Of a DNA stretch of 17,491 bases, positions 3,594 to 17,065 are shown piece by piece. The stretch lies in IMG/VR virus record IMGVR_UViG_3300029741_000087, positions 1 through 17,491 of that record. One strand, written 5' to 3'. The position numbers were made by a program, and so were the translations under genes. Origin of the DNA: a virus (lineage: Duplodnaviria > Heunggongvirae > Uroviricota > Caudoviricetes). Under the pieces are notes generated by a model. It did no database searches. It was not told the origin of the DNA and was given only the letters and a program-made list of their open reading frames with translations. The stretch's first letter is position 1; each line of letters begins with the position of its first letter.

Positions 3594-6500
3594 ATGGCGA
3601 CGTTACGTGAACTGATTATCAAAATTTCGGCAAATTCACAGTCATTCCAGTCGGAGATCCAGCGGGCGTCCCGTATGGGCAGTGAATATTACCGGACCCT
3701 GCAGAATGGCGGACGTCAGGCTGCTGCGGCAGCCAGGGAGCAGTGCCGGGCTCTGGCTGAGCTGAACAGCCAGTTGACGGAAATCCGCGCTTCGGCTGTC
3801 GGAATGACCAGTGCGTTTGCCGGTGCCTTTGCCACCGGACACCTGATTTCGCTGGCAGATGAATGGAGCTCCGTGAATGCCCGTCTGAAACAGGCGTCGC
3901 AGTCATCGGATGAATTTGCGTTATCACAGAAAGTGCTGATGGACATCAGCCAGCGGACAGGCACCGCATTTTCGGATAATGCGACCCTGTTTGCCCGTTC
4001 GGCTGCCTCGATGCGTGAATATGGTTACAGTGCTGATGATGTGCTGAAGGTGACGGAGGCCATTTCGACAGGGCTGAAAATTTCCGGTGCCAGTGCGGCA
4101 GAGGCGGGTTCGGTGATCACCCAGTTCAGCCAGGCGCTGGCACAGGGGGTGTTGCGCGGCGAGGAATTTAATTCGGTCAATGAAAGTGGGGACCGGATCA
4201 TTCGCGCACTGGCTGCAGGCATGGGCGTGGCCCGTAAGGATCTGAAGGCGATGGCGGACGATGGTCAACTGACGGCGGATAAAGTCGTTCCCGCGTTAAT
4301 CAGCCAGCTGGGGATATTGCGTGATGAATATGCAGCCATGCCGGAAACGGTGTCTGACGGGATCACGAAGGTGGAAAACGCCTTTATGGCCTGGGTGGGC
4401 GGCGCGAATGAGGCCAGCGGAGCGACGAAAACGCTCTCCGGCGCACTGAACGGTGTGGCCGGAAATATTGATACCGTGGCAACAGCTGCGGGTGTGCTGG
4501 TTGCTGTCGGGGTGGCCCGGTACTTTGGTAATCTGGCTTCCGGAGCGATGTCTGCCACGGCAGGACTTGTGACCGCTGCACGTAATGAAGTGGCACTGGC
4601 TGAGGCCCAGTTAAGGGGAACGCAGATTGCCACGGCGCGGGCAAGGGCAGCCGTGTACCGGGCTCAGCAGGCTGTGGCGGCAGCCCGCGGGACTGAGATG
4701 CAGATTGCGGCAGAGGCCCGTCTGGCGGTCACACAGGAACGCCTGAACAGAAATATTGCTGCCAGAACCGCCGCCCAGAATGCGCTGAACAGTACAACGG
4801 CGGTGGGCTCACGTCTGATGAGCGGTGCGCTGGGACTGGTTGGAGGCGTACCCGGACTGGTGATGCTGGGAGCTGCCGCATGGTACACGCTGTACCAGAA
4901 TCAGGAGCAGGCCAGGGAGTCTGCGCGCCAGTATGCACTGACGATTGATGAAATCGCGCATAAAACGCCATCAATGTCTCTGCCTGAAGCCTCAGATAAT
5001 GAAGGGCGAACACGGGAGGCGCTGACAGAGCAGAACCGGCTGATTGATGAGCAGGCCAGCCGGGTGAAATCCCTGCAGGAAAAAATCGCCGGGTATCAGT
5101 ATGTGCTGGCTAATCCGGGCTGGACGACCGGTAACGGCTTCATGATAAACCATCTGACATCGGTGAAAACTGTAACGGAAGAGCTTGCTCAGGCAACAGA
5201 GCAGTTTGCTGTTGAGCAGTCCCGTCTGGCACAGATGCAGGAAAAAGCGCAGTCCATTCAGGATGTGCTTGCCGGACTGGAAGAGCGCCGTGTTGTGTTA
5301 ATTCGTCAGCAGGCAGCAGAGCAGAATAAAGCGTATCAGTCACTGCTGGTCATGAACGGTCAGCATACGGAATTCAACCGCCTGCTGGGGCTGGGTAATG
5401 AACTGCTGCAACAGCGTCAGGGACTGGCGAGTGTACCGCTGCGACTGCCACAGGCCACTCTGGATGATAAACAGCAGAGCGCCCTGAATAACACAGAGCG
5501 TCAACTGGCCCTGTCCCGGCTGAAAGGGGAAGAAAAAGAGCGTGCCCGGCTGGGGTATGCGGCGGATGACCTTGGTCTGGTGGGGGATACGTATCAGGAG
5601 GCGAGGCAGCGTTACATCCGTAATTCGATGGAAGCCTGGCGCAATAATGAGGCGAATAAACCCAAATCCCGGGCCGGAAAATCAGGGGCGGAAAAAGCGG
5701 AAGACAGTTTTTCCCGTCTGCTGAAGCAGCAGAAGGAACAACTGGCACTGGCCGGGAAGAATACAGAACTGGCAAAACTGAAATACCAGACCTCGCAGGG
5801 CGAGCTGAAAACCCTGACGGAGATACAGAAGCAGGAGCTGCTGCGCAATGCTGCCCTGATTGACCAGAAGAAAATCCGGGAGCAGTTACGGGCCCGGGAG
5901 GAGACCCTGAAAAATGATAATGCAGACGCAAGGGCATCAAATGACGCTGAGCTGCTGGGGTACGGGCAGGGTGAGCGGGTCCGTGAACGGATGCGGGAGC
6001 TGCAGCAGATTCGTGACGGCTACCGCCAGAAGGATGCGGACCTGCAGTCTCAGTATCAGACAGGGGATATCAGTGAGGATTTTTACAGACAGGCGCTGGC
6101 GCAGAATGCGCAGTATCTGAGTGAACGCCTTAAAGACCAGGAGGCTTTTTATGCCGAATCGGATGCGCAGCGTGCTGACTGGCAGAAAGGGCTGCAGGAA
6201 GGGCTAAGTAACTGGGTGGACAGCGCATCAGATTACGCTTCACAGGCAGCACAGCTTGCGACAGACGGTATCTCAGGGATGGTGAATAACATCACGGAGA
6301 TGCTGAACGGAAATAAAGTGGAATGGCGCAGCTGGGCTGCATCAATCCTGCAGGAAATATCAAAAGTTCTTATGAATGCGGCCATTGTCAACGGCATTAA
6401 GATGGCGGCAAACAGTATGTCCGGTGCAGGAGGATTTTTCGGCAGTATAGGCAACTGGCTGGGTGGCGCGGTGGCAAATGCAAAAGGCGGCGTTTATACC

Positions 6501-6836
6501 TCGGCAAACCTGAGTGCATACAGTAACAGTATTGTGGACACGCCCACGTACTTTGCCTTTGCAAAAGGGGCAGGGCTGATGGGGGAGGCCGGACCTGAAG
6601 CCATCATGCCCCTGACCCGGGCAGCGGATGGTTCACTCGGCGTGCGTGCGGTGGGCAGTATGAACGGCAGTGCGGGTCTGGTGTATTCCCCGGTGTACCA
6701 CATCGCCATTCAGAATGACGGCGCTAACGGGCAGATAGGGCCGGAAGCGGCGGGCACCCTTGTGCAACTGATTGACCAGCGGGTACAGGCGGTGATGTTA
6801 TCCATGCGTCGTGACGGAGGAATGCTGAGTGGATGA
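3594..6836 (+). CDS. H: Tail tape measure protein
   Basis: 1080 aa, Ala/Gln-rich, predicted coiled-coil-like, with a hydrophobic Gly-rich segment. C-terminus (QNDGANGQIGPEAAG...RRDGGMLSG) resembles the lambda H C-terminus as I recall it (NNDGTNGQIGPAAL...RDGGLFSG). Shine-Dalgarno AGGAGAAAGG upstream. Confidence 0.9.
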   Translation: MATLRELIIKISANSQSFQSEIQRASRMGSEYYRTLQNGGRQAAAAAREQCRALAELNSQLTEIRASAVGMTSAFAGAFATGHLISLADEWSSVNARLKQASQSSDEFALSQKVLMDISQRTGTAFSDNATLFARSAASMREYGYSADDVLKVTEAISTGLKISGASAAEAGSVITQFSQALAQGVLRGEEFNSVNESGDRIIRALAAGMGVARKDLKAMADDGQLTADKVVPALISQLGILRDEYAAMPETVSDGITKVENAFMAWVGGANEASGATKTLSGALNGVAGNIDTVATAAGVLVAVGVARYFGNLASGAMSATAGLVTAARNEVALAEAQLRGTQIATARARAAVYRAQQAVAAARGTEMQIAAEARLAVTQERLNRNIAARTAAQNALNSTTAVGSRLMSGALGLVGGVPGLVMLGAAAWYTLYQNQEQARESARQYALTIDEIAHKTPSMSLPEASDNEGRTREALTEQNRLIDEQASRVKSLQEKIAGYQYVLANPGWTTGNGFMINHLTSVKTVTEELAQATEQFAVEQSRLAQMQEKAQSIQDVLAGLEERRVVLIRQQAAEQNKAYQSLLVMNGQHTEFNRLLGLGNELLQQRQGLASVPLRLPQATLDDKQQSALNNTERQLALSRLKGEEKERARLGYAADDLGLVGDTYQEARQRYIRNSMEAWRNNEANKPKSRAGKSGAEKAEDSFSRLLKQQKEQLALAGKNTELAKLKYQTSQGELKTLTEIQKQELLRNAALIDQKKIREQLRAREETLKNDNADARASNDAELLGYGQGERVRERMRELQQIRDGYRQKDADLQSQYQTGDISEDFYRQALAQNAQYLSERLKDQEAFYAESDAQRADWQKGLQEGLSNWVDSASDYASQAAQLATDGISGMVNNITEMLNGNKVEWRSWAASILQEISKVLMNAAIVNGIKMAANSMSGAGGFFGSIGNWLGGAVANAKGGVYTSANLSAYSNSIVDTPTYFAFAKGAGLMGEAGPEAIMPLTRAADGSLGVRAVGSMNGSAGLVYSPVYHIAIQNDGANGQIGPEAAGTLVQLIDQRVQAVMLSMRRDGGMLSG

Positions 6837-7368: not shown

Positions 7369-8523
7369 ATGAAAAAAATGACAGTGGCACTTTCTGCTGT
7401 AGCAGTGGCAGTGATGTTTGCTGCGGGGGCGCAGGCAGCAGAAGTTTATAATAAAGATGGTAATAAACTGGATCTTTACGGGCGTGCAACCGCTCTGCAT
7501 TACTTCTCGGATGATAAAGGTAATGACGGAGACCAGACTTATGCTCGTCTCGGCTTTAAAGGCGAAACGCAGATTAATGATCAACTGACCGGATTTGGTC
7601 AGTGGGAATACCAGTTCTCTGGTAATAAAACGGAATCTGAAGGTTCCGCGGGAAATAAAACCCGTCTGGCATTTGCAGGTCTGAGATTTGCAGATGTTGG
7701 TACCATTGATTACGGACGTAACTATGGTATTGCTTACGATGTCGGATCATATACTGACGTACTGCCTGAGTTTGGTGGTGATGGCTGGACGCAGACCGAT
7801 AACTTTATGACGGCCCGAACTTCCGGTGTCCTGACTTACCGTAATACAGACTTCTTCGGACTGGTTGATGGTCTGAATTTTGCGGCGCAGTATCAGGGCA
7901 AAAATGAGCGTGATGACCTTCAGAAGGCTAATGGCGACGGGTATGGTTTCTCGGCCAGCTATGAGTTTGATGGTTTTGGTTTTGTCGCTGCGTATACCAA
8001 GTCAGATCGTACTGATAAGCAGGTTCAGGGGTTGAATGGTACTGCAGATGTTCTTGATCCTGCATCAGGTAAAAAGGTTGGAGAAAAAGCAGTTGACTCA
8101 GGTAGTGTGGCAAAAGGTAAACATGCTGAATTCTGGGGAACTGGTCTTAAATATGATGCCAATAACCTGTATCTGGCAGCAGTGTATTCTGAAACCCAGA
8201 ATATGACGACCTTTGGTGATCAAGGTGTTGCGGATAAAGCTCAGAATATCGAAGCCGTTGTTCAGTATCAGTTTGATTTTGGTCTGCGCCCGTCCCTTGC
8301 CTACCTTCAGTCCCGCGGACAGGATGTTATGGTTGGTGGTGTGAACCATGGCGATCAGGATCTGGTTAAATATATTGATGTCGGTGCGACTTATTACTTT
8401 AACAAGAATATGTCCACCTATGTTGATTATAAAATTAACCTGATTGATGAAAGTGAATTTACCCGGAAAGCCGGTGTTGCGACAGATAATATCGTTGCTG
8501 TGGGTATGACTTATCAGTTCTGA
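7369..8523 (+). CDS. General outer-membrane porin, OmpC/OmpF/PhoE family (phage moron)
   Basis: 384 aa. Cleavable signal peptide [23 protein letters not shown] followed by [15 protein letters not shown]; C-terminal ...VAVGMTYQF with terminal Phe, typical of beta-barrel porins. AAGGA Shine-Dalgarno before the ATG. The gene and its flanks are markedly AT-richer than neighbouring tail genes. Confidence 0.9.
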
Positions 8524-9441: not shown

Positions 9442-10185
9442 ATGACACAGACTGAATCAGCGATTCTGGTGCATGCCCGGCGGTGTGCGCCAGCGGAGTC
9501 GTGCGGCTTCGTGATAAGCACCCCGGAGGGCGAACGGTACCAGCCCTGCGTGAATATCTCCGCAGAGCCGGAGGCGTATTTTCGTATTACACCGGAAGAC
9601 TGGCTGCAGGCACAGATGCAGGGGGAGATTGTGGCGCTGGTCCACAGTCATCCCGGTGGTCTGCCCTGGCTGAGCGAGGCGGACCGGCGGCTGCAGATAA
9701 AGAGTGCCCTGCCCTGGTGGCTGGTCTGCCGGGGTGAAATTCACCGGTTCCGCTGTGTGCCGCACCTGACCGGACGGCGCTTTGAACACGGTGTGACGGA
9801 CTGTTACACCCTGTTCCGGGATGCATACCATCTGGCGGGGATAACGCTGCCGGATTTTGTGCGTGAGGATGACTGGTGGCGCAACGGTCAGAACCTGTAC
9901 CTGGACAACCTGGCAGACAACGGCTTTTACCGGGTGTCTCCGTCCTGTGCACAGGCGGGCGATATCCTGCTGTGCTGCTTTGGTTCATCGGTGCCGAATC
10001 ATGCCGCCATTTACTGTGGCAACGGTGAACTGCTTCACCATATACCTGAACAACTGAGTAAACGGGAGAGGTATTCAGAGAAATGGCAACGACGAACGCA
10101 TTCTGTCTGGCGTCACCGCCACTGGTCCGCATCTGCCTTCACGGGGATTTACAACGATTTGGTCGCCGCATCAGCCTGTATGTGA
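9442..10185 (+). CDS. K: Tail assembly protein K (JAMM/MPN plus NlpC/P60 domains)
   Basis: Starts MTQTESAIL as in lambda K. JAMM motif HSHPGGLPWLSEAD (HxHx7Sx2D) and an NlpC/P60-like Cys/His pair (DCYTL, NHAAIY). The track's 9181 start overlaps L and is rejected. Confidence 0.9.
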   Translation: MTQTESAILVHARRCAPAESCGFVISTPEGERYQPCVNISAEPEAYFRITPEDWLQAQMQGEIVALVHSHPGGLPWLSEADRRLQIKSALPWWLVCRGEIHRFRCVPHLTGRRFEHGVTDCYTLFRDAYHLAGITLPDFVREDDWWRNGQNLYLDNLADNGFYRVSPSCAQAGDILLCCFGSSVPNHAAIYCGNGELLHHIPEQLSKRERYSEKWQRRTHSVWRHRHWSASAFTGIYNDLVAASACM

Positions 10186-10763
10186 ACACGGCAGCGGAGG
10201 CCATCCGTGCCCTGTCGCTGCAGGTGCCGGGATTCCGCGGTCAGATGAACGAAGGCTGGTATCAGATACGTATTGCCGGTGAGGATACCGCACCGGAGGC
10301 GGTGTACGCCCGTCTTCACGAACAACTGGGTGAGGGAGCGGTCATCCACATTGTGCCGCGACTGGCCGGAGCCGGGGGAAATGGTGTTTTTCAGGTGGTG
10401 CTGGGGGTTGCAGCGATTGTCGGGTCATTTTTCACTGGTGGTGCAACACTGGCGGCATGGGGCGCAGCCCTGAGTGCCGGAGGGCTGACTGCCACCACGA
10501 TGCTGTTCTCACTGGGTGCCAGCATGATACTGGGTGGTGTGGCTCAGATGCTGGCCCCGAAGGCAAAGACGCCGGAGTATAAAAGTACGGATAACGGTAA
10601 ACAGAACACGTATTTTTCGTCACTGGACAACATGATTGCCCAGGGTAACCCGATGCCGGTGCCTTACGGTGAAATGCTGGTTGGTTCACGACGGATATCC
10701 CAGGATATCAGCACCCGTGATGAGGGCGGAGACGGGAAAGTGGTGGTTATCGGACGGGGATAA
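10083..10763 (+). CDS. I: Tail assembly protein I
   Basis: MATTNAFCLASPPLVRICLHGDLQRFGRRI...NGKQNTYFSSLDNM...VVVIGRG aligns with lambda I (MAATHTLPLASPGMARICLYGDLQRFGRRI...VVVIGR) from memory. Overlaps the 3' end of K. Confidence 0.9.
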   Translation: MATTNAFCLASPPLVRICLHGDLQRFGRRISLYVNTAAEAIRALSLQVPGFRGQMNEGWYQIRIAGEDTAPEAVYARLHEQLGEGAVIHIVPRLAGAGGNGVFQVVLGVAAIVGSFFTGGATLAAWGAALSAGGLTATTMLFSLGASMILGGVAQMLAPKAKTPEYKSTDNGKQNTYFSSLDNMIAQGNPMPVPYGEMLVGSRRISQDISTRDEGGDGKVVVIGRG

Positions 10764-10866
10764 AAATAAAAAAATCCCGCAGAGTTAGCGGAGCTGCGGG
10801 AAGAGATACGAAGATTAACTGTAAGGAGTTATTATTATGTCACAGCAAAAAAAACGGTAACGCAGA
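10764..10866 (-). ncRNA. Candidate small RNA, cassette 1 (predicted from promoter and terminator; not a known family by sequence)
   Basis: Minus strand: TTCACA (10897-10892), 16-bp spacer, TATAAT (10875-10870), predicted start near 10864 at conserved GCGUUACC. Intrinsic terminator: hairpin 10800-10776 then U7 (10774-10768). No plausible ORF. Contains AACUCCUUACA. Confidence 0.5.
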
Positions 10867-10896
10867 GAAATTATAAGCGCCACTGGGATTTTGTGA

Positions 10897-10918
10897 AAAT
10901 GTGAAGAATTTCAGAAAT
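10897..10918. promoter_or_regulatory. CRP-like box (TGTGA-N6-TCAGA), cassette 1
   Basis: AAATGTGAagaattTCAGAaat; left half matches the CRP consensus AAATGTGA exactly, right half is TCAGA versus TCACA. Centre is about 43 bp upstream of the predicted minus-strand start. Confidence 0.45.
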
Positions 10919-10996
10919 TTTTTGCTGCAGAGGTGCAGGGAGCTTGCCGGGTATCTGTGGCAGAAGACAGAAAACATCATGCCGGGGTTAAGGGAT

Positions 10997-11096
10997 AAAA
11001 AAATCCCGCAGAGTCCGGAGACTGCGGGACAGAACCGATGAAGATTAACGTTCAAGGAGTTTTGTTTTTATTGACCCGAAAAAACTGTAACGCCCC
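10997..11096 (-). ncRNA. Candidate small RNA, cassette 2
   Basis: Minus strand: -10-like TATCAT (11105-11100), start near 11094 at conserved GCGUUACAG, terminator hairpin 11028-11005 then U7 (11003-10997). Contains AACUCCUUGAA. The -35 is poor. Confidence 0.4.
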
Positions 11097-11126
11097 GGAA
11101 TGATATCTGCCACGGGAACGTACAGA

Positions 11127-11148
11127 AAATGTGAAGAAATTCAGACTT
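11127..11148. promoter_or_regulatory. CRP-like box, cassette 2
   Basis: AAATGTGAagaaatTCAGActt; same spacing to the -10 hexamer and conserved GCGTTAC as in cassette 1. Confidence 0.4.
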
Positions 11149-11230
11149 TTTCTGTCGCAGGTTTACAGAACGGATGACCGCCAGGGTACCAGTGGCGTAA
11201 ATGAGCAGGATGTTGTGGTGTGGCTGAAGC

Positions 11231-11336
11231 AAAAAAATCTCCCGTAATATCGCCGGATACTGACGGGAGACGAATAGTCACCTTAAGGAGGTCTGATAAT
11301 TATTGCTTTTATTGAGCAAAAAAACTGTAACGCTGC
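11231..11336 (-). ncRNA. Candidate small RNA, cassette 3
   Basis: Minus strand: TATAAT (11345-11340), start near 11334 at conserved GCGUUACAG, terminator with perfect 8-bp stem (11271-11264 / 11245-11238) then U7 (11237-11231). Contains GACCUCCUUAAGG. Confidence 0.5.
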
Positions 11337-11366
11337 GTCATTATAGTGGCTACAGGCAATTGCCGG

Positions 11367-11388
11367 AAATGTGAAGAATTTCAGAAAT
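11367..11388. promoter_or_regulatory. CRP-like box, cassette 3
   Basis: AAATGTGAagaattTCAGAaat; same spacing to the TATAAT at 11345-11340 as in cassette 1. Confidence 0.45.
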
Positions 11389-11404
11389 TTTATTCCGTCA
11401 TGAC

Positions 11405-11436
11405 ACAGGCACCCTCCGGGGTGCCTGTCGTTTTCT
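11405..11436 (+). terminator. Plus-strand intrinsic terminator about 40 nt upstream of the J start
   Basis: Perfect 10-bp stem acaggcaccc (11405-11414) / gggtgcctgt (11419-11428), loop tccg, followed by cgttttct. Confidence 0.5.
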
Positions 11437-11478: not shown

Positions 11479-14400
11479 GTGGGTAAAGGGGGCGGCAAGG
11501 GGCACACACCGCGTGAGGCGAAGGACAATCTCAAATCCACGCAGATGATGAGCGTGATTGATGCCATTGGTGAGGGACCGGTGGAAGGTCCGGTGAAGGG
11601 ACTGCAGAGTATTCTGGTGAACAAAACCCCGCTGACGGACACGGACGGTAATCCCGTGATACACGGTGTGACCGCCGTCTGGCGTGCCGGGGAGCAGGAG
11701 CAGACACCGCCGGAAGGCTTTGAGTCCTCCGGGGCAGAAACCGCACTGGGCGTGGAGGTGACGAAGGCAAAGCCGGTGACGCGCACCATCACGTCAGCGA
11801 ACATTGACCGTCTGCGGGTCACCTTCGGGGTACAGTCACTGGTGGAGACCACCTCAAAGGGTGACCGTAATCCCTCTTCTGTCCGCCTGCTGATTCAGCT
11901 TGAGCGTAACGGGCACTGGGTGACGGAGAAGGATGTCACCATTAACGGCAAGACCACCTCGCAGTACCTGACGTCGGTGATTCTGAATAATCTCCCTGAG
12001 CGCCCCTTTAACATCCGGATGGTCAGGGTGACGGCGGACAGCACCACGGACCAGCTGCAGAACAGAACGCTGTGGTCGTCATACACCGAAATCATCGATG
12101 TGAAACAGTGCTACCCGAACACGGCGATTGTGGGGCTGCAGGTGGATGCGGAGCAGTTTGGTGGCCAGCAGCTGACGGTGAACTACCATATCCGTGGTCG
12201 CATCATTCAGGTGCCGTCAAACTATGACCCGGAAAAACGCACCTACAGCGGTATCTGGGACGGGAGTCTGAAACCGGCATACAGCAATAACCCGGCCTGG
12301 TGCCTGTGGGACATGCTGACCCACCCGCGCTACGGCATGGGAAAACGCCTGGGGGCCCCGGACGTGGACAAGTGGGCACTGTATGCCATCGGGCAGTACT
12401 GTGACCAGACGGTCCCGGATGGTTTCGGGGGAACAGAGCCGCGGATGACTTTCAATGCGTACCTGTCACAGCAGCGTAAGGTGTGGGATGTCCTGGGGGA
12501 TTTCTGCTCGGCGATGCGCTGTATGCCGGTATGGAACGGCCAGACGCTGACGTTCGTTCAGGACCGTCCGTCGGATGTGGTGTGGCCGTACACCAACAGC
12601 GATGTGGTGGTGGATGATAACGGCGTGGGGTTCCGCTACAGCTTCAGTGCCCTGAAGGACCGGCACACGGCGGTGGAGGTGAATTACACCGACCCGCAGA
12701 ACGGCTGGCAGACCTCCACGGAACTGGTGGAAGACCCGGACGCCATCCTGCGCTACGGGCGCAATCTGCTGAAGATGGATGCGTTCGGCTGTACCAGCCG
12801 CGGTCAGGCCCACCGTGCCGGACTGTGGGTGATAAAGACAGAACTGCTGGAAACGCAGACGGTGGATTTCACGCTCGGGTCACAGGGGCTGCGGCACACG
12901 CCCGGTGACATCATTGAAATCTGTGATAACGACTACGCCGGGACCCTGACCGGTGGACGCATCCTGTCCATCGATGCCGCCAGCCGTACCCTGACGCTGG
13001 ACCGTGAGGTGATACTGCCGGAAGCAGGGACATCGACGGTGAACCTGATTAACGGCAGCGGTAAGCCGGTGCGCGTGGACATCACTGCACACCCCGCCCC
13101 TGACCGGATACAGGTCAGCGTCCTGCCTGATGGCGTGGAGACATACGGTGTGTGGGGACTCTCCCTGCCGTCACTGCGTCGTCGCCTGTTCCGCTGTGTT
13201 TCCATCCGGGAAAACACGGACGGCACCTTTGCCATCACGGCAGTGCAGCACGTACCGGAAAAAGAAGCCATCGTGGATAACGGGGCCACCTTTGAGCCGC
13301 TGTCCGGTTCACTGAACAGCGTCATCCCGCCGGCAGTGCAGCACCTCACGGTGGAGGTGAGTGCCTCAGACGGCCAGTATCTGGCGCTGGCGAAATGGGA
13401 CACGCCGCGGGTGGTGAAGGGCGTGCGCTTCAGTCTGCGCCTGACCAGTGGCAGTGGTGAAAACAGCCGCCTGGTGACCAGCGCTATCACTGCCGACACG
13501 GAGCACCGTTTCAGTGGCCTGCCGCCCGGGGAATACACCCTGACGGTCAGGGCGATAAACAGCTACGGCCAGCAGGGCGAACCTGCCACCACCACGTTCC
13601 GGATTAACGCACCGGCAGCACCGGCCAGCATTGAACTGACGCCGGGGTATTATCAGATAACGGCGGTCCCGCATCTTACGGTGTATGACCCGACGGTACA
13701 ATTTGAGTTCTGGTTTTCGGAGGCAAAAATCGCAGACACATCTCAGGTGGAAACCTCTGCCCGTTATCTGGGGACAGGCAGCCAGTGGAGTGTCTCCGGC
13801 CCGCACATTAAGCCGGGGAAGGATTTCTGGTTTTATGTGCGCAGCGTCAACCTGGTGGGGAAATCTGCGTTTGTGGAAGCCAGTGGCCGGGCCAGCAATG
13901 ATGCGGAAGGGTATCTGGGGCTGTTTCGGGAAAAGATAGGAAAACTGCATCTGGCACAGGGGATGTGGGAGCTGATTGATAACAGCCAGCTTGATGATGA
14001 GATGGCGGAGATGAAGACCACCATCACAGAAACCCGCAATGAAATCACGCAGACGGTCAGTAAAACCCTGGAAGACCAGAGCGCCACCATACAGCAGATA
14101 CAGCGGGTGCAGACAGACACAAATAACGACCTGGCTGCGCTGTACATGCTGAAGGTGCAGAAAACAAAAAACGGCATTCCGTATGTTGCCGGTATTGGTG
14201 CGGGGATTGAGGATGCTGATGGCCAGCCCCTGAGCAATATACTGCTGCAGGCGGACCGTATCGCGATGATTAACCCGGAGAACGGCAACACCACGCCGCT
14301 GTTTGTGGCGCAGGGGAATCAGCTGTTCATGAACGATGTGTTCCTGAAGCGACTGTTTGCGGTGAGCATCACCTCGTCCGGCAATCCCCCGACGTTCTCC

Positions 14401-14946
14401 CTGACGCCGGAGGGCAGGCTGACGGCCCGCAATGCGGACATCAGCGGACATATCAGTGCGAACTCGGGCACGCTGAATAATGTCGTGATAGCGGAGAACT
14501 GTACGATAAATGGCACGCTGAAAGCGGAGAACATTATTGGTGATCTTGTGAAATGTGCAGGGGTGGCTTTTCCGGTGGATGGTAGTTACCTTGCGAACGG
14601 TACACGAACGCTGACGGTGTATGACGATCACAGCTTTGACCGGCAGATTATAATCCCGCCGATAATCTATGTCGGGTCAAAACAGGAATCCCGCACCAGT
14701 AATGACATCTGGACAGAGTGCTTCCTGCATGTTGATCAGAACGGACGCCGGATTTATTCAGGCAGGTCAGTGACAGAGCCGGGAATTTTCAGCGGGATCA
14801 TCGATATGCCAGCCGGTCATGGTCATATCACCCTGAGTTTTACCGTAAGTTCACGACGTCAGAACGGGAGTTTTGGCAGTTCACGTATCAGTAACCTTCA
14901 GGCGATAGTGGTGAAGAAAAACAGCGCGGGGATCAGTATCCGCTGA
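11479..14946 (+). CDS. J: Host specificity / central tail fibre protein J
   Basis: 1155 aa from a GTG start. N-terminus [22 protein letters not shown] and long internal stretches (for example [35 protein letters not shown]) are near-identical to lambda J as I recall it. The C-terminal ~150 aa are more divergent. Confidence 0.95.
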
Positions 14947-15144: not shown

Positions 15145-15285
15145 ATGTCGCAAAAACCGTTAAAAACCACCGTGATTTGTATCACGGTAGTGCTCATTAT
15201 CTGGATCACCCACACTTCACTGTGCGAGTTCCGGTTCCGGATAGCGGGCGCGGAGATTGCGGCGTTCTTACAGTGTAAGCAGTAA
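15145..15285 (+). CDS. Hok/Gef-family type I toxin (small membrane peptide); not in the ORF track because it is shorter than 60 aa
   Basis: 46 aa: MSQKPLKTTVICITVVLIIWITHTSLCEFRFRIAGAEIAAFLQCKQ. One transmembrane stretch followed by SLCEFRFR...EIAAF, matching the Hok signature (Hok of plasmid R1: ...[23 protein letters not shown]) from memory. AGGAG at 15131-15135, 9 nt before the ATG. Confidence 0.7.
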   Translation: MSQKPLKTTVICITVVLIIWITHTSLCEFRFRIAGAEIAAFLQCKQ

Positions 15286-15427: not shown

Positions 15428-17065
15428 ATGACAGTCAGAATATCGGGTGTGCTGAAGGATGGTACGGGAAAAGCGGTACCGGGATGCACGATAGAGCTGA
15501 AAGCGCGCCGCACAACGGAGACGGTGATTGTCACCACGGTGGCGTATGGTCAGCCGGGGGAAACCGGCAGTTACAGTATGGATGTTGAGCCGGGGTTGTA
15601 CCGGGTGACGCTGAACACGGAAGGGTACGCGCCGTCATATGTGGGTGACATTCTGGTGAAGGCGGATTCTGCACCGGGAACGCTGAATAAATATCTGATG
15701 GACCTGGAAGACGCACAGTATTACCCGAAAGCCCTTGCAGAGCTGGAAGCGGTGGCAGCGGAAATCCTGAAACGTGCGGAAGCGTCAGCGGCGAGTGCGG
15801 AGGAGGCAAAAAAACGGGCAGAGAATGCGCGGGGACCGAAGGGGGATAAGGGGGACACCGGGCCGCAGGGTATTCCCGGGCCAAAAGGCGATACCGGCGA
15901 GCGGGGGCCAAAGGGTGAGCGTGGTGAGACAGGACCACAGGGGCTTCAGGGTGTGAAAGGTGAACGGGGAGAGAAGGGCGAAAAAGGCGAGCCGGGAGGA
16001 CCGGATGCGACGACGGCACAGAAGGGAATTGTGCAGTTAAGCAGCGCAACGGACAGTGATGATGAAACGAAGGCAGCCACCCCGAAAGCGGTGAAAGCGG
16101 CAATGGACAAAGCGGACGGATGCCTGGAGAAAGCGAAAAACGGTGACGATATCCCGGATAAGGTGAAGTTTCTGAACACCGTGGGAGCAGCCAGAGTATA
16201 CGGGCGGGACATTCATACGGAGACCGGTGAATGGACCACGAGTGAGTTTGTGGCCTGGCTGAAAGAAAAGGGGGCATTTGACCAGCCTTACTGGATGATG
16301 AAGGCATCACTGCCTGCGGCAATGAATAAAGTCATCACAGATGTCGGACCGGGAAAACTCAATCTGGGTGGCTGTGTCATTGAGGTGATGGGAACGTATG
16401 AGGCTGCCATAGTCCGGGTCACCATTGGCGAATACGGTGCAACGGGGTTTATTAATGGCACGGTCTGTACCTGTACGGTTTACGGCGACACACGGTATTT
16501 CCACTGGCGGGTGGATTACAGCACAAAAAACAAACCGGATACGGTCAGCCAGCGGGATGCCAGCACGACGCAGAAAGGTGTGGTGCAGTTAAGCAGTGAT
16601 ACTGGCAGTAATGACGAAACAAAGGCAGCCACGCCGAAGGCCGTGAAGGCGGCAATGGATGTGGCAAATGAAGCGAAAACAAAGGCAGAAGAGGCTGCAG
16701 CAGGAGGTGGTGTTCCCGGTCCGAAAGGGGAGAAAGGCGACCCCGGTCCCAGAGGTGAGCGTGGAGAAACCGGGCCGATGGGGCCGCCCGGGGCATCAGA
16801 CGGGAAGAGCCGGGTTGTGGGTATCAGGCTGGGTAATAAACAGACTTATGCGCCGCAAACAGACAGCACTACATGGGCAGTGGATTTGGATATTGGTGCG
16901 ATGATTACGGGGATTGGCGGTTACAACGACGGAAACAAAACCCTTATTGACAGGGTATCTTACAGGCCGCTTCAGGTGACATTTGATGGTTCTCAGTGGC
17001 GTACAGTCAGCGTGGGTGAGTATGTGTCGTCAGGAGCTTCGGGGTTTGAGTATTTTCCATTATAA
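15428..17065 (+). CDS. stf: Side tail fibre protein (Stf-like) with collagen-like Gly-X-Y tracts
   Basis: 545 aa. N-terminus MTVRISGVLKDGTGKAVPGCTIELKARR matches lambda Stf (MAVKISGVLKDGTGKPVQNCTIQLKARR) from memory. Two copies of the fibre repeat QKG(I/V)VQLSS...ETKAATPKAVKAAMD. Gly-X-Y runs at aa 136-191 and 427-455. Confidence 0.9.
   Translation: MTVRISGVLKDGTGKAVPGCTIELKARRTTETVIVTTVAYGQPGETGSYSMDVEPGLYRVTLNTEGYAPSYVGDILVKADSAPGTLNKYLMDLEDAQYYPKALAELEAVAAEILKRAEASAASAEEAKKRAENARGPKGDKGDTGPQGIPGPKGDTGERGPKGERGETGPQGLQGVKGERGEKGEKGEPGGPDATTAQKGIVQLSSATDSDDETKAATPKAVKAAMDKADGCLEKAKNGDDIPDKVKFLNTVGAARVYGRDIHTETGEWTTSEFVAWLKEKGAFDQPYWMMKASLPAAMNKVITDVGPGKLNLGGCVIEVMGTYEAAIVRVTIGEYGATGFINGTVCTCTVYGDTRYFHWRVDYSTKNKPDTVSQRDASTTQKGVVQLSSDTGSNDETKAATPKAVKAAMDVANEAKTKAEEAAAGGGVPGPKGEKGDPGPRGERGETGPMGPPGASDGKSRVVGIRLGNKQTYAPQTDSTTWAVDLDIGAMITGIGGYNDGNKTLIDRVSYRPLQVTFDGSQWRTVSVGEYVSSGASGFEYFPL

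What the first reader, a model, noticed from the sequence alone, without database searches (positions are those of the whole stretch)
10897..11388. CRP-like box at class II distance in every cassette
Each unit carries AAATGTGA-N6-TCAGA (left half identical to the CRP consensus, right half 4/5). In all three units its centre lies about 43 bp upstream of the predicted minus-strand start, which I placed 7 nt past the -10 hexamer; allowing a couple of nt uncertainty, that is the class II activation position (-41.5). The spacing is preserved even though the surrounding -35 region differs; only unit 1 has a good -35, TTCACA. This predicts cAMP-CRP-dependent, catabolite-controlled expression from the prophage.
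Basis: partly seen in the sequence, partly recalled or inferred. Interest (0 to 1): 0.7.

Follow-up and report, generated by a model that had tools for sequence, protein, structure and literature searches.

The report
Conserved CRP-like box before prophage sRNAs
Three tandem copies of a known prophage small-RNA gene (PasB/EcOnc22 family) share a strongly conserved promoter box that looks like a weak CRP site, but it is not at the class II distance and sugar-dependent control is untested.

Summary
The motif is real. AAATGTGA-N6-TCAGA occurs exactly three times in the window, once per cassette. The cassettes are three diverged tandem copies of a known Hfq-dependent prophage sRNA gene: PasB in EPEC, EcOnc22-24 in EHEC. 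They lie antisense between tail genes I and J.

Across 49 distinct box-bearing promoter variants fetched without reference to the box, A-tract plus box (AATAAAA-nTT-CTGA-N6-TCACATTT) is the most conserved 28 bp of the unit. Mean pairwise identity is 0.89, against 0.61 overall. The half-sites are fixed and part of the N6 varies, as expected for a dimer-binding site.

As a CRP site it is weak:
- It scores 6 bits on a matrix built from 107 ChIP-seq CRP sites, the 7th percentile of those sites.
- Random sequence reaches that score about 0.8 times per kb.

The class II geometry fails. The published PasB 5' end puts it near -59.5 to -60.5, close to class I.

PasB rises in overnight LB and falls in DMEM, opposite to CRP-repressed Spot 42. 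That fits CRP control but does not prove it.

Verdict: a genuine regulatory element. CRP is the best candidate, at about 0.4.

The parts
10083..10763 (+). Tail assembly gene I (left flank of the insert)
   Evidence: Pfam Lambda_tail_I, E=3e-16. RefSeq annotation of a 96.6% identical locus gives 'tail assembly protein'.
10768..10863 (-). Unit 1 sRNA body (96 nt from the G seven nt after TATAAT to the end of the U-run). PasB/EcOnc22-family member, with terminator hairpin CCCGCAG...CTGCGGG plus T7.
   Evidence: The alignment with PasB and relatives shows shared GCGTTA..T-run, AACTCCTT..TTAATCTTC and terminator.
10854..10859 (-). Unit 1 alternative -10-like hexamer TACCGT (TAnnnT). It would start transcription at about 10847/10846 and put the box at -60.5/-61.5.
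   Evidence: T+5, A+6 and T+10 are invariant across all promoter clusters. Geometry.
10870..10875 (-). Unit 1 -10 hexamer TATAAT
   Evidence: Promoter scan, 11/12 match with TTCACA and a 16-nt spacer.
10892..10897 (-). Unit 1 -35 hexamer TTCACA. Present only in this unit of the three.
   Evidence: Units 2 and 3 have TTCTGT and TCCGGC-type sequence at this position.
10897..10918 (.). Unit 1 CRP-like 22-mer AAATGTGAAGAATTTCAGAAAT (minus view ATT-TCTGA-AATTCT-TCACA-TTT), centre 10907.5
   Evidence: PWM score 6.1 bits.
10918..10924 (-). Unit 1 A-tract just upstream of the box (CAAAAAA; family consensus AATAAAA, positions -61..-55)
   Evidence: A at -60 and AAAA at -58..-55 are invariant in the family.
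10997..11093 (-). Unit 2 sRNA body (97 nt) with terminator
11100..11105 (-). Unit 2 -10 hexamer TATCAT. The -35 region is poor.
11127..11148 (.). Unit 2 CRP-like 22-mer AAATGTGAAGAAATTCAGACTT, centre 11137.5
   Evidence: PWM score 6.0 bits.
11231..11333 (-). Unit 3 sRNA body (103 nt). Its terminator stem differs from the CCCGCAG/CTGCGGG stem of units 1 and 2 (CCCGTCAGTA...TATTACGGG).
11340..11345 (-). Unit 3 -10 hexamer TATAAT. The -35 region is poor.
11367..11388 (.). Unit 3 CRP-like 22-mer AAATGTGAAGAATTTCAGAAAT, centre 11377.5, followed upstream by AATAAAA (11388-11394)
11405..11428 (+). GC-rich hairpin with a T-rich tail pointing toward J, upstream of the unit 3 promoter. It is also present in the single-unit loci of EPEC and EHEC Sakai.
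   Evidence: Terminator scan. The same element is seen in L001 and L120.
11479..14946 (+). Tail tip gene J (right flank)
   Evidence: Pfam Ig_J, FNIII-A_GpJ, Phage-tail_3 and Ig_GpJ_C.

Best explanation
The three boxes are the upstream control element of three tandem, independently transcribed PasB/EcOnc22-family sRNA genes. These genes form a 'moron' inserted antisense between tail genes I and J of a lambdoid prophage.

The element is an A-tract followed by the dyad (T/C)CTGA-N6-TCACATTT. It is kept by selection at a fixed distance from the promoter. The best candidate reader is cAMP-CRP, binding weakly: one half-site with its flank is a perfect consensus, and the other carries a strongly disfavoured C.

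It does not work as a class II site. Relative to the strong TATAAT hexamer it is centred at -44.5. Relative to the 5' end actually reported for PasB, which coincides with a second conserved -10-like element (c)GnTAnnnT, it is at about -60. That is the class I arrangement, in which CRP recruits the alpha C-terminal domain of RNA polymerase.

The predicted outcome is higher sRNA output when glucose is exhausted.

Shown: family identity, anatomy, conservation, geometry.
Inferred: that a protein binds, that it is CRP, and which start site it serves.

Confidence split: regulatory protein-binding element about 0.8, CRP about 0.4, class II <0.1.
For: Family identity:
- The I-J gap of EPEC E2348/69 holds PasB, with the same box, -10, GCGTTA start and terminator.
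- The I-J gap of Sakai Sp15, where the EcOnc22 Hfq-CRAC peak maps, matches the window at 89% identity.
- PasB and EcOnc22 are Hfq-dependent and about 83-85 nt long (PMC8550237, PMC4104026).

Conservation:
- Loci were collected through the J protein or through a pattern that excludes the box. 49 of 52 distinct promoter regions keep [TC]CTGA-N6-TCACA in register.
- Invariant positions are A-60, AAAA -58..-55, CTGA, T-44 and TCACATTT. Spacer positions -47..-45 and the stretch -33..-21 vary.
- A-tract plus box is the most conserved block of the unit.
- The TCACA-to--10 gap is 24 nt in 46 of 49 variants, although its sequence diverges.

CRP-likeness:
- 9 of 10 core bases match, the N6 spacing is right, and the proximal half TCACATTT is 8/8.
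- The score equals that of galP1, a genuine CRP-dependent promoter, on the same matrix (6.1 against 6.2 bits).

Geometry at about -60:
- The annotated PasB 5' end is 1466343. The RIL-seq fragment boundary is 1466344, and no coordinate reaches the TATAAT-predicted start at 1466358 in the stored part of the table.
- T+5, A+6 and T+10 are invariant.
- One unit type lost TATAAT (it has AACCTT) but carries TAGATT exactly at the alternative -10 position, 40 nt after TCACA.

Expression:
- PasB is higher in overnight static LB than in DMEM. CRP-repressed Spot 42 is about 5-fold higher in DMEM.
Against: - The matrix score is at the 7th percentile of 107 in vivo CRP sites and is reached about 0.8 times per kb in random sequence.
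- The three anti-consensus positions are themselves invariant or nearly so: the C of TCTGA (-5.2 bits) and the two outer spacer bases (-1.8 bits each). This hints at a protein with a different preference, or at selection for weak binding.
- Unit 1 and PasB have a near-consensus -35/-10 pair that should fire without an activator.
- Neither -44.5 nor -59.5 is a canonical CRP position.
- The PasB 5' end comes from coverage, not from a primary-end method, so it could be a processing site.
- PasB is still expressed in DMEM. The LB condition also differs in growth phase and oxygen, since SdsR and FnrS rise too.
- No box-like 16-mer appears among the published ETEC or EAEC CRP ChIP sites. I could not establish whether those strains carry the locus.
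Confidence: 0.4

Rival explanations
1. The dyad and A-tract are the operator or activator site of a different DNA-binding protein, either a host factor or one common to these prophages. That protein would prefer TCTGA-N6-TCACATTT as such, and the resemblance to CRP would be partial and coincidental.
For: - The bases that make the site poor for CRP are invariant or nearly so across all promoter clusters: C at -51 (8/8), T at -42 (7/8), A at -47 (6/8).
- T-44 and C-43 inside the 'spacer' are also conserved, giving an asymmetry not expected for CRP.
- A further conserved GT.G at -20..-17 is unexplained.
- The position fits no canonical CRP class relative to the strong -10.
Against: - No other E. 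coli regulator consensus I could recall fits better. These comparisons rest on memory, not on a matrix library.
- Cra shares CTGAA..TTCA but needs a central CG, which is absent and variable here.
- FNR matches 6 of 10.
- ArgR, MetR, TyrR and DeoR have the wrong spacing.
- OmpR-type direct repeats fit poorly.
- The element is conserved across prophages in many E. coli lineages (1103 of 5426 genomes), which favours a ubiquitous host factor such as CRP.
Confidence: 0.3
2. No dedicated regulator binds. The block is core-promoter architecture: an UP-element-like A-tract, AT-rich curved DNA and -35-proximal sequence for RNA polymerase alpha and sigma. Its uniformity is reinforced by recombination between cassettes, which use it as a shared junction.
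For: - AAA(T/A)TT at -57..-52 matches the start of the distal UP subsite consensus (recalled from Estrem et al.).
- 22 of 28 bases of the conserved block are A or T.
- Upstream segments, spacer types and sRNA bodies occur in shuffled combinations among loci. This implies exchange within or near the block.
Against: - The invariant CTGA and TCACA are G/C-containing and are not part of any UP consensus.
- The variable bases lie between two fixed pentamers, which is the signature of a dimeric protein site.
- Recombination needs identity but does not create it.
Confidence: 0.15
3. One reading: a class II CRP-dependent promoter, with CRP overlapping the -35 at about -41.5 and contacting RNA polymerase directly.
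For: - CRP-like dyad.
- Poor -35 in units 2 and 3.
- Fixed spacing to the -10.
Against: - The centre is 32 bp upstream of the -10, against about 29 for -41.5, in 46 of 49 variants. That gives -44.5, or -42.5 at the very best with an unusually short 5-nt start distance.
- The reported PasB 5' end puts the box at about -60.
- Genome-wide, CRP sites cluster at -41.5, -61.5 and -93.5 (PMC5957442).
- Even a 1-bp shift at class II gives erratic regulation (PMC6301791).
Confidence: 0.07
4. The similarity is a chance resemblance in sequence that is conserved only because the copies are young. The box has no function.
For: The PWM score is within the random range. The three window copies are duplicates.
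Against: The rest of the unit has diverged to 0.32-0.69 mean pairwise identity, while the block stays at 0.89. It is more conserved than the sRNA itself.
Confidence: 0.05

Closest known systems
PasB (EPEC E2348/69) and EcOnc22/23/24 (EHEC Sakai prophages Sp15/Sp14/Sp11)
   Same: - Same place (the gap between tail genes I and J) and same antisense orientation.
- Same box, same -10 and same GCGTTA..T-run start.
- Same AACUCCUU..UUAAUCUUC core and the same type of terminator.
- Hfq-dependent, about 83-85 nt.
   Different: - Here three diverged copies stand in tandem, and related loci have up to four.
- The 2026 survey describes PasB as typically one variant per genome and reports no tandem duplication of pasA or pasD copies.
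- The 5' variable regions of the three copies differ.
- Neither paper links PasB to EcOnc22-24 or discusses its promoter.
lac P1, the class I CRP promoter (site at -61.5)
   Same: If the PasB 5' end is a primary start, the box is at -59.5 to -61.5. It then lies upstream of a weak -35 (TGG...) and a TAnnnT -10, an arrangement like that of lac.
   Different: The lac site scores 14.4 bits on the same matrix, against 6 bits here. The start site here is not mapped as primary.
galP1, the class II CRP promoter (site at -41.5)
   Same: An equally weak CRP site on the same matrix (6.2 bits), with the site close to the -35.
   Different: The centre is 3 bp further upstream (-44.5), on a different face of the helix.
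CRP-controlled Hfq sRNAs CyaR and McaS (activated) and Spot 42 (repressed)
   Same: A stand-alone sRNA gene whose output would follow cAMP levels. PasB varies inversely to Spot 42 between DMEM and LB.
   Different: For those sRNAs CRP control is experimentally established (my own knowledge, not checked here). For this family nothing has been tested.
Sibling sRNA sets such as OmrA/OmrB, Qrr1-4 and PrrF1/2
   Same: Adjacent homologous sRNA genes with a common promoter control element, a common core and divergent parts.
   Different: These are prophage-borne and lie inside a late operon. Copy number varies from 1 to 4 between prophages.

Membership tests
CRP binding site | 22-bp dyad with TGTGA-N6-TCACA core | tested here: inconclusive
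   - 9 of 10 core bases match with exact N6. The proximal half plus flank, TCACATTT, is 8/8.
- The matrix from 107 ETEC ChIP-seq sites (PMC4287617) gives 6.0-6.1 bits. That is the 7th percentile of real sites and equal to galP1, but it is reached about 0.8 times per kb at random.
CRP binding site | Evolutionary constraint on the two pentamers, with a freer spacer | tested here: met
   CTGA and TCACA are invariant in 8 clusters and 49 variants. Seven different N6 sequences occur. However, three anti-consensus bases are also invariant or nearly so.
CRP binding site | Occupancy by CRP in vitro or in vivo | not testable with these tools
   No box-like 16-mer is in the published ETEC H10407 or EAEC 042 CRP ChIP tables. 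Whether those strains carry the locus could not be established. The one 042 I-J gap examined holds a different insert.
CRP binding site | Expression dependent on crp/cya and relieved of glucose repression | not testable with these tools
   Only indirect evidence. PasB is higher in overnight LB than in DMEM, opposite to Spot 42. This comparison is confounded by growth phase and oxygen.
Class II CRP-dependent promoter | Site centred at about -41.5, overlapping the -35 | tested here: not met
   The centre is 32 nt upstream of the -10, giving -44.5 with the start 7 nt after the hexamer. The spacing is fixed in 46 of 49 variants.
Class II CRP-dependent promoter | Weak or absent -35 hexamer | tested here: inconclusive
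   The -35 is poor in units 2 and 3. Unit 1 and PasB have TTCACA (5/6) with a 16-nt spacer.
Class I CRP-dependent promoter | Site centred near -61.5 (or one or more helical turns further upstream) from a primary start | tested here: inconclusive
   The box is at -60.5/-61.5 from starts predicted by the conserved TAnnnT element. It is at -59.5/-60.5 from the PasB 5' end given by coverage and RIL-seq. It is not known whether that end is primary or processed.
PasB/EcOnc22-24 prophage sRNA family | Located in the I-J intergenic gap of a lambdoid prophage, antisense to the tail genes | tested here: met
PasB/EcOnc22-24 prophage sRNA family | Sequence homology to the described members | tested here: met
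   Megablast of the window's I-J region hits the VT1-Sakai (Sp15) I-J gap at 89% identity. The alignment with PasB shows a shared promoter, 5' end, core and terminator.
PasB/EcOnc22-24 prophage sRNA family | Own promoter, intrinsic terminator with U-tail, Hfq binding | tested here: inconclusive
   Promoter and terminator are present in all three units. Hfq binding is known only for the homologues, from the literature.
Cra (FruR) operator | TGAAWC-GNTTCA-type palindrome with a central CG | tested here: not met
   The central bases are TT, AT or CT and are variable. Variants break TGAA or TTCA but keep the CRP-type pentamers. The Cra consensus is recalled from memory.
FNR site | TTGAT-N4-ATCAA | tested here: not met
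   6 of 10 bases match. The discriminating T/A positions are wrong in both halves (read from the sequence; the consensus is recalled from memory).
Rfam-described RNA families (AgvB, AsxR, Esr41, STnc100 and others) | Covariance-model match at the gathering score | tested here: not met
   No hit at gathering threshold in the whole window. Only chance-level hits appear at E up to 10.

The most novel reading that the evidence does not exclude
The box is the common switch of a variable-copy 'sibling sRNA array' carried in lambdoid tail operons, with one to four diverged PasB-like genes. It is read either by CRP from a class I-like position or by an as yet unidentified regulator. Nutrient state would then set the dose of several anti-Shine-Dalgarno sRNAs (conserved AACUCCUUAAC core) with different 5' ends, retuning host and prophage translation in about one fifth of E. 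coli strains.
Probability: 0.25. Interest if true: 0.5.

Novelty: new member of a known kind. Interest (0 to 1): 0.33.

Why it matters
PasB-type genes occur in about 20% of complete E. coli genomes (1103 of 5426). In EPEC, PasB ranks among the sRNAs with the most Hfq-mediated interactions, yet its function and regulation are undescribed.

A defined, testable control element would say when these prophage sRNAs are made. It would also link them, if CRP is confirmed, to carbon availability in the gut.

The tandem arrays show that this family does expand by local duplication, which the current survey of Pas sRNAs did not report.

The result is incremental: one more candidate regulator site for a known sRNA family, not a new mechanism.

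Tried and rejected
**Other RNA families**
- Rfam at gathering and at permissive thresholds found nothing meaningful.
- Other prophage sRNAs were checked and excluded as the same family:
  - AgvB and AsxR have Rfam models and gave no hit.
  - HnrS/EcOnc10-12 lies near the terminase and lysis genes, not in the I-J gap.
  - svsR lies at the cI gene.

**Start-site mapping**
- I tried to use the Hfq-CRAC peak coordinates of EcOnc22 to decide between the two candidate starts.
- The peak is given in an older Sakai genome version. Calibrating the shift through HnrS leaves an uncertainty of about 126-132 nt.
- That puts the peak start between the two candidates, so the test is inconclusive.
- No dRNA-seq table was available.

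**CRP ChIP data**
- The ETEC H10407 and EAEC 042 CRP ChIP tables contain no box-like site. I could not show that these strains carry the locus.
- The EAEC 042 prophage peak near a tail-fibre gene lies between lom and stf. The I-J gap of that prophage holds a different insert.

**RNA structure**
- The consensus fold supports only the terminator. There is no conserved 5' stem that would prove the first 16 nt are in the RNA.

**Other regulators**
- From recalled consensus sequences I compared Cra, FNR, ArgR, MetR, TyrR, DeoR, RcsB, the OmpR/PhoB type, MarA/SoxS, IHF, Fis, Ogr and EvgA.
- None fits as well as CRP. No matrix library was available.

**Protein-coding reading**
- Minus-strand ORFs of 52-71 aa span the units. 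I rejected them as genes because they run across promoter and terminator.
- The family alignment also has indels that are not multiples of three.
Full report
**Context**

The window is the tail module of a lambdoid prophage. It contains a tape-measure gene (3594-6836), tail assembly gene I (10083-10763), tip gene J (11479-14946) and a side tail fibre gene (15428-17065), all on the + strand. The finding lies in the 715-bp gap between I and J. That gap consists of three direct repeats spaced 230 and 240 bp apart and 63-70% identical to each other.

Read on the minus strand, each repeat has this order:
- an A-tract;
- the box TCTGA-N6-TCACA;
- 24 nt;
- a -10 hexamer (TATAAT, TATCAT, TATAAT);
- 6 nt;
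- a conserved GCGTTAC.G followed by a T-run;
- a variable stretch;
- a conserved AACTCCTT..TTAATCTTC core;
- a GC-rich hairpin followed by a T-run.

Each repeat is therefore a stand-alone small-RNA gene of 96, 97 or 103 nt.

**Checking the observation**

The exact string AAATGTGA-N6-TCAGA occurs at 10897, 11127 and 11367 and nowhere else. No other TGTGA-N6-TCA.A exists on either strand. The spacing to the -10 is the same in all three units, and only unit 1 has a good -35 (TTCACA, 16-nt spacer), as reported.

The distance is not as reported. The centre of the dyad lies 32 nt upstream of the first base of the -10.

**What the cassettes are**

Rfam has no model for them, but the literature does.
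- In EPEC E2348/69 the sRNA PasB is annotated at NC_011601.1 1466343-1466261 on the minus strand. It is 83 nt, Hfq-dependent, and lies between tail gene I and J (PMC8550237 table S6). The fetched locus shows the same box (TCTGAATATCTTCACA), the same 24-nt gap, TATAAT, GCGTTAG.G plus T-run, core and terminator.
- In EHEC Sakai the Hfq-CRAC peak EcOnc22 falls in the I-J gap of prophage Sp15, antisense to the tail genes. It gives a band of about 85 nt on northern blots, is destabilised without hfq, and has homologues EcOnc23 and EcOnc24. That gap matches the window at 89% identity.
- Neither the EPEC paper nor the 2026 survey of Pas sRNAs links PasB to EcOnc22-24. Neither mentions a promoter, CRP, cAMP or glucose.
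- A PasB-type unit is present in 1103 of 5426 complete E. coli genomes. The three-unit region of this window is covered to at least 80% in 46 genomes.

**Is the box more than chance?**

The three copies in the window are duplicates, so they do not count as three trials. On a position weight matrix it is also not exceptional.
- I built a symmetrised matrix from the 107 16-mers of the ETEC H10407 CRP ChIP-seq table (PMC4287617).
- The boxes score 6.0-6.1 bits, the 7th percentile of those real sites.
- For comparison, galP1 scores 6.2, lac P1 14.4 and the consensus 21.9 bits.
- 26 positions in the window score at least as high, and random sequence of the same composition gives about 0.8 such positions per kb.
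- The penalties come from the G of TCAGA (-5.2 bits) and the two outer spacer bases (-1.8 bits each).

The case for function rests on conservation.
- I collected related loci through the N-terminus of J (genome and viral collections) and through a DNA pattern that excludes the box.
- I located units with an HMM of the sRNA body only.
- Of 52 distinct promoter regions, 49 keep [TC]CTGA-N6-TCACA in register. The other three belong to one class in which everything upstream of the RNA has been replaced.
- After down-weighting close relatives (8 clusters), the invariant positions are A-60, AAAA at -58..-55, CTGA at -51..-48, T-44 and TCACATTT at -41..-34. Spacer positions -47..-45 and the stretch -33..-21 vary.
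- Seven different N6 sequences occur. The gap to the -10 is 24 nt in 46 of 49 variants although its sequence has diverged.
- Among 21 representatives below 90% identity, A-tract plus box has mean pairwise identity 0.89. The whole unit has 0.61, the first 16 nt of the RNA 0.69 and the RNA core 0.61. It is the best 28-column window, and none of 100,000 column permutations reached it.

Two fixed pentamers, a fixed spacer length with partly free sequence and a fixed distance to the promoter are what a dimeric regulator site looks like.

**Is it CRP?**

In favour:
- 9 of 10 core bases match.
- The spacing is right.
- The proximal half with its flank is a perfect consensus.
- Variation avoids the pentamers.

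Against:
- The positions that make it a poor CRP site are themselves invariant or nearly so.
- Part of the spacer (T-44, C-43) is also conserved, which CRP does not require.

Other regulators compared from recalled consensus sequences fit worse.
- Cra shares CTGAA..TTCA but needs a central CG. Here that position is absent and variable, and natural variants break TGAA/TTCA while keeping the CRP-type pentamers.
- FNR matches 6 of 10.

Expression data are compatible but weak. PasB is higher in overnight static LB than in exponential DMEM, while Spot 42, which cAMP-CRP represses, is about 5-fold higher in DMEM. However, the RpoS-dependent SdsR and the FNR-dependent FnrS rise in the same condition.

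The published CRP ChIP tables for ETEC H10407 and EAEC 042 contain no box-like site. I could not determine whether those strains carry a PasB locus. The one 042 prophage I examined has a different insert in its I-J gap.

**Geometry and mechanism**

Genome-wide, CRP sites cluster at -41.5, -61.5 and -93.5 (PMC5957442). Activation is steeply phase-dependent: cooperativity is 763 at -61.5, 30 at -60.5, 51 at -62.5, 4-6 at -63.5/-64.5 and 1 at -66.5. At class II even a shift to -40.5 gives erratic regulation (PMC6301791). A centre at -44.5 is therefore not a class II arrangement.

There is a second possibility.
- The bases T+5, A+6 and T+10 of the 'transcript' are invariant and G+3 nearly so. Together they form (c)GnTAnnnT, a -10-like element 16 bp downstream of TATAAT.
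- Starts predicted from that element put the box at -60.5/-61.5 in all three units.
- The annotated PasB 5' end (1466343) and the 5'-most RIL-seq boundary in the stored part of the table (1466344) lie within 1-2 nt of that predicted start. They are 14-15 nt downstream of the TATAAT-predicted start (1466358). No coordinate in that table reaches further upstream.
- One unit type (L039/L051) has lost TATAAT (it has AACCTT). It keeps the box and carries TAGATT exactly at the downstream position, 40 nt after TCACA.

Against this:
- TATAAT is near-consensus and well conserved.
- In unit 1 and PasB it is paired with a 5/6 -35.
- The short 5' end could be an RNase E product.

An attempt to settle this with the EcOnc22 CRAC peak failed because of coordinate-version uncertainty. 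The consensus RNA fold supports only the terminator.

**Conclusion**

- The object is a known sRNA family, present here as a three-copy array.
- The box is a genuine, selected promoter element not described in the papers I could search.
- CRP is the best available candidate (about 0.4), but as a weak site.
- The class II model is not supported (<0.1).
- If CRP acts, a class I-like arrangement relative to the mapped PasB 5' end is the more coherent reading.
- A different regulator (about 0.3) or a polymerase-only promoter element (about 0.15) remain open.

Noticed in passing
window 7369-8523 (+): A full-length OmpC-type porin gene (Pfam Porin_1, E=5.9e-144) sits inside the tail operon upstream of the minor tail gene L. 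In the 96.6% identical N51 locus it lies between a small phage tail protein gene and L and is annotated 'porin OmpC'. It is a second moron in the same prophage.
   Followed up: partly
window 15145-15285 (+); 15171-15186: A 46-aa Hok/Gef-type toxin ORF follows J. The best CRP-matrix match of the whole window (CGTGATTTGTATCACG, 15.0 bits) lies inside this ORF (codons V-I-C-I-T), so it is probably coincidental.
   Followed up: partly
window 11405-11428 (+); also L001 about 1130-1153 and L120 about 943-966: A GC-rich hairpin followed by a T-rich tail points toward J, just upstream of the J-proximal sRNA promoter. It is conserved in single-unit loci of EPEC and EHEC. Its role is unknown; it might stop + strand transcription from entering J in lysogens.
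   Followed up: no
L044 and L045 (four boxes spaced 218-232 bp); L173 and L241 (three); L039, L042 and L051 (two, 179 bp apart): The number of PasB-like units in the I-J gap varies from one to four between prophages. This shows tandem expansion, whereas the 2026 survey describes PasB as typically a single variant per genome.
   Followed up: partly
L056, L059, L002, L003 (for example L056 around 1748): In one class of loci, including E. albertii, the sRNA body (GAGTTAATG...) is preceded by unrelated sequence with a GC hairpin. It has neither the box nor TATAAT, so this copy lacks the family's promoter or is driven from elsewhere.
   Followed up: no
L039 and L051, J-proximal unit: This unit keeps the box but has AACCTT in place of TATAAT. 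It has TAGATT exactly 40 nt after TCACA, the position of the conserved TAnnnT element of the other units.
   Followed up: partly
L264, just after the box: Homology to the family promoter breaks 17 nt after TCACA. The sequence that follows resembles an IS3-family insertion-sequence end (recognised from memory, not checked), cutting the box off from its -10 and sRNA.
   Followed up: no
L240 (E. coli 042, NC_017626.1 1440127-1440603 and about 1444796): The I-J gap of this EAEC prophage holds a different insert, a 339-bp hypothetical ORF, and no box. A published CRP ChIP-seq peak (score 173) lies between lom and the side tail fibre gene of the same prophage.
   Followed up: partly
window about 10822-10860 (+): On the + strand of unit 1 a perfect Shine-Dalgarno sequence (AAGGAG) precedes an ATG and a 7-codon ORF (MSQQKKR). 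It is the complement of the sRNA's conserved CUCCUU. Units 2 and 3 have the AAGGAG but no ATG.
   Followed up: no
Literature: PMC8550237 table S6, PMC4104026 table S2: PasB (EPEC) and EcOnc22/23/24 (EHEC) are the same family by position and sequence. The EPEC paper lists EHEC homologues only for PasA and PasD, and the 2026 survey does not mention EcOnc22-24.
   Followed up: yes
family promoter positions -20..-17 (window 10880-10883, 11110-11113, 11350-11353): A conserved GT(G/A)G lies between the box and the -10 (G-20, T-19 and G-17 invariant or nearly so). It could be the -35 of the downstream promoter candidate or a further protein contact. It is unexplained.
   Followed up: partly
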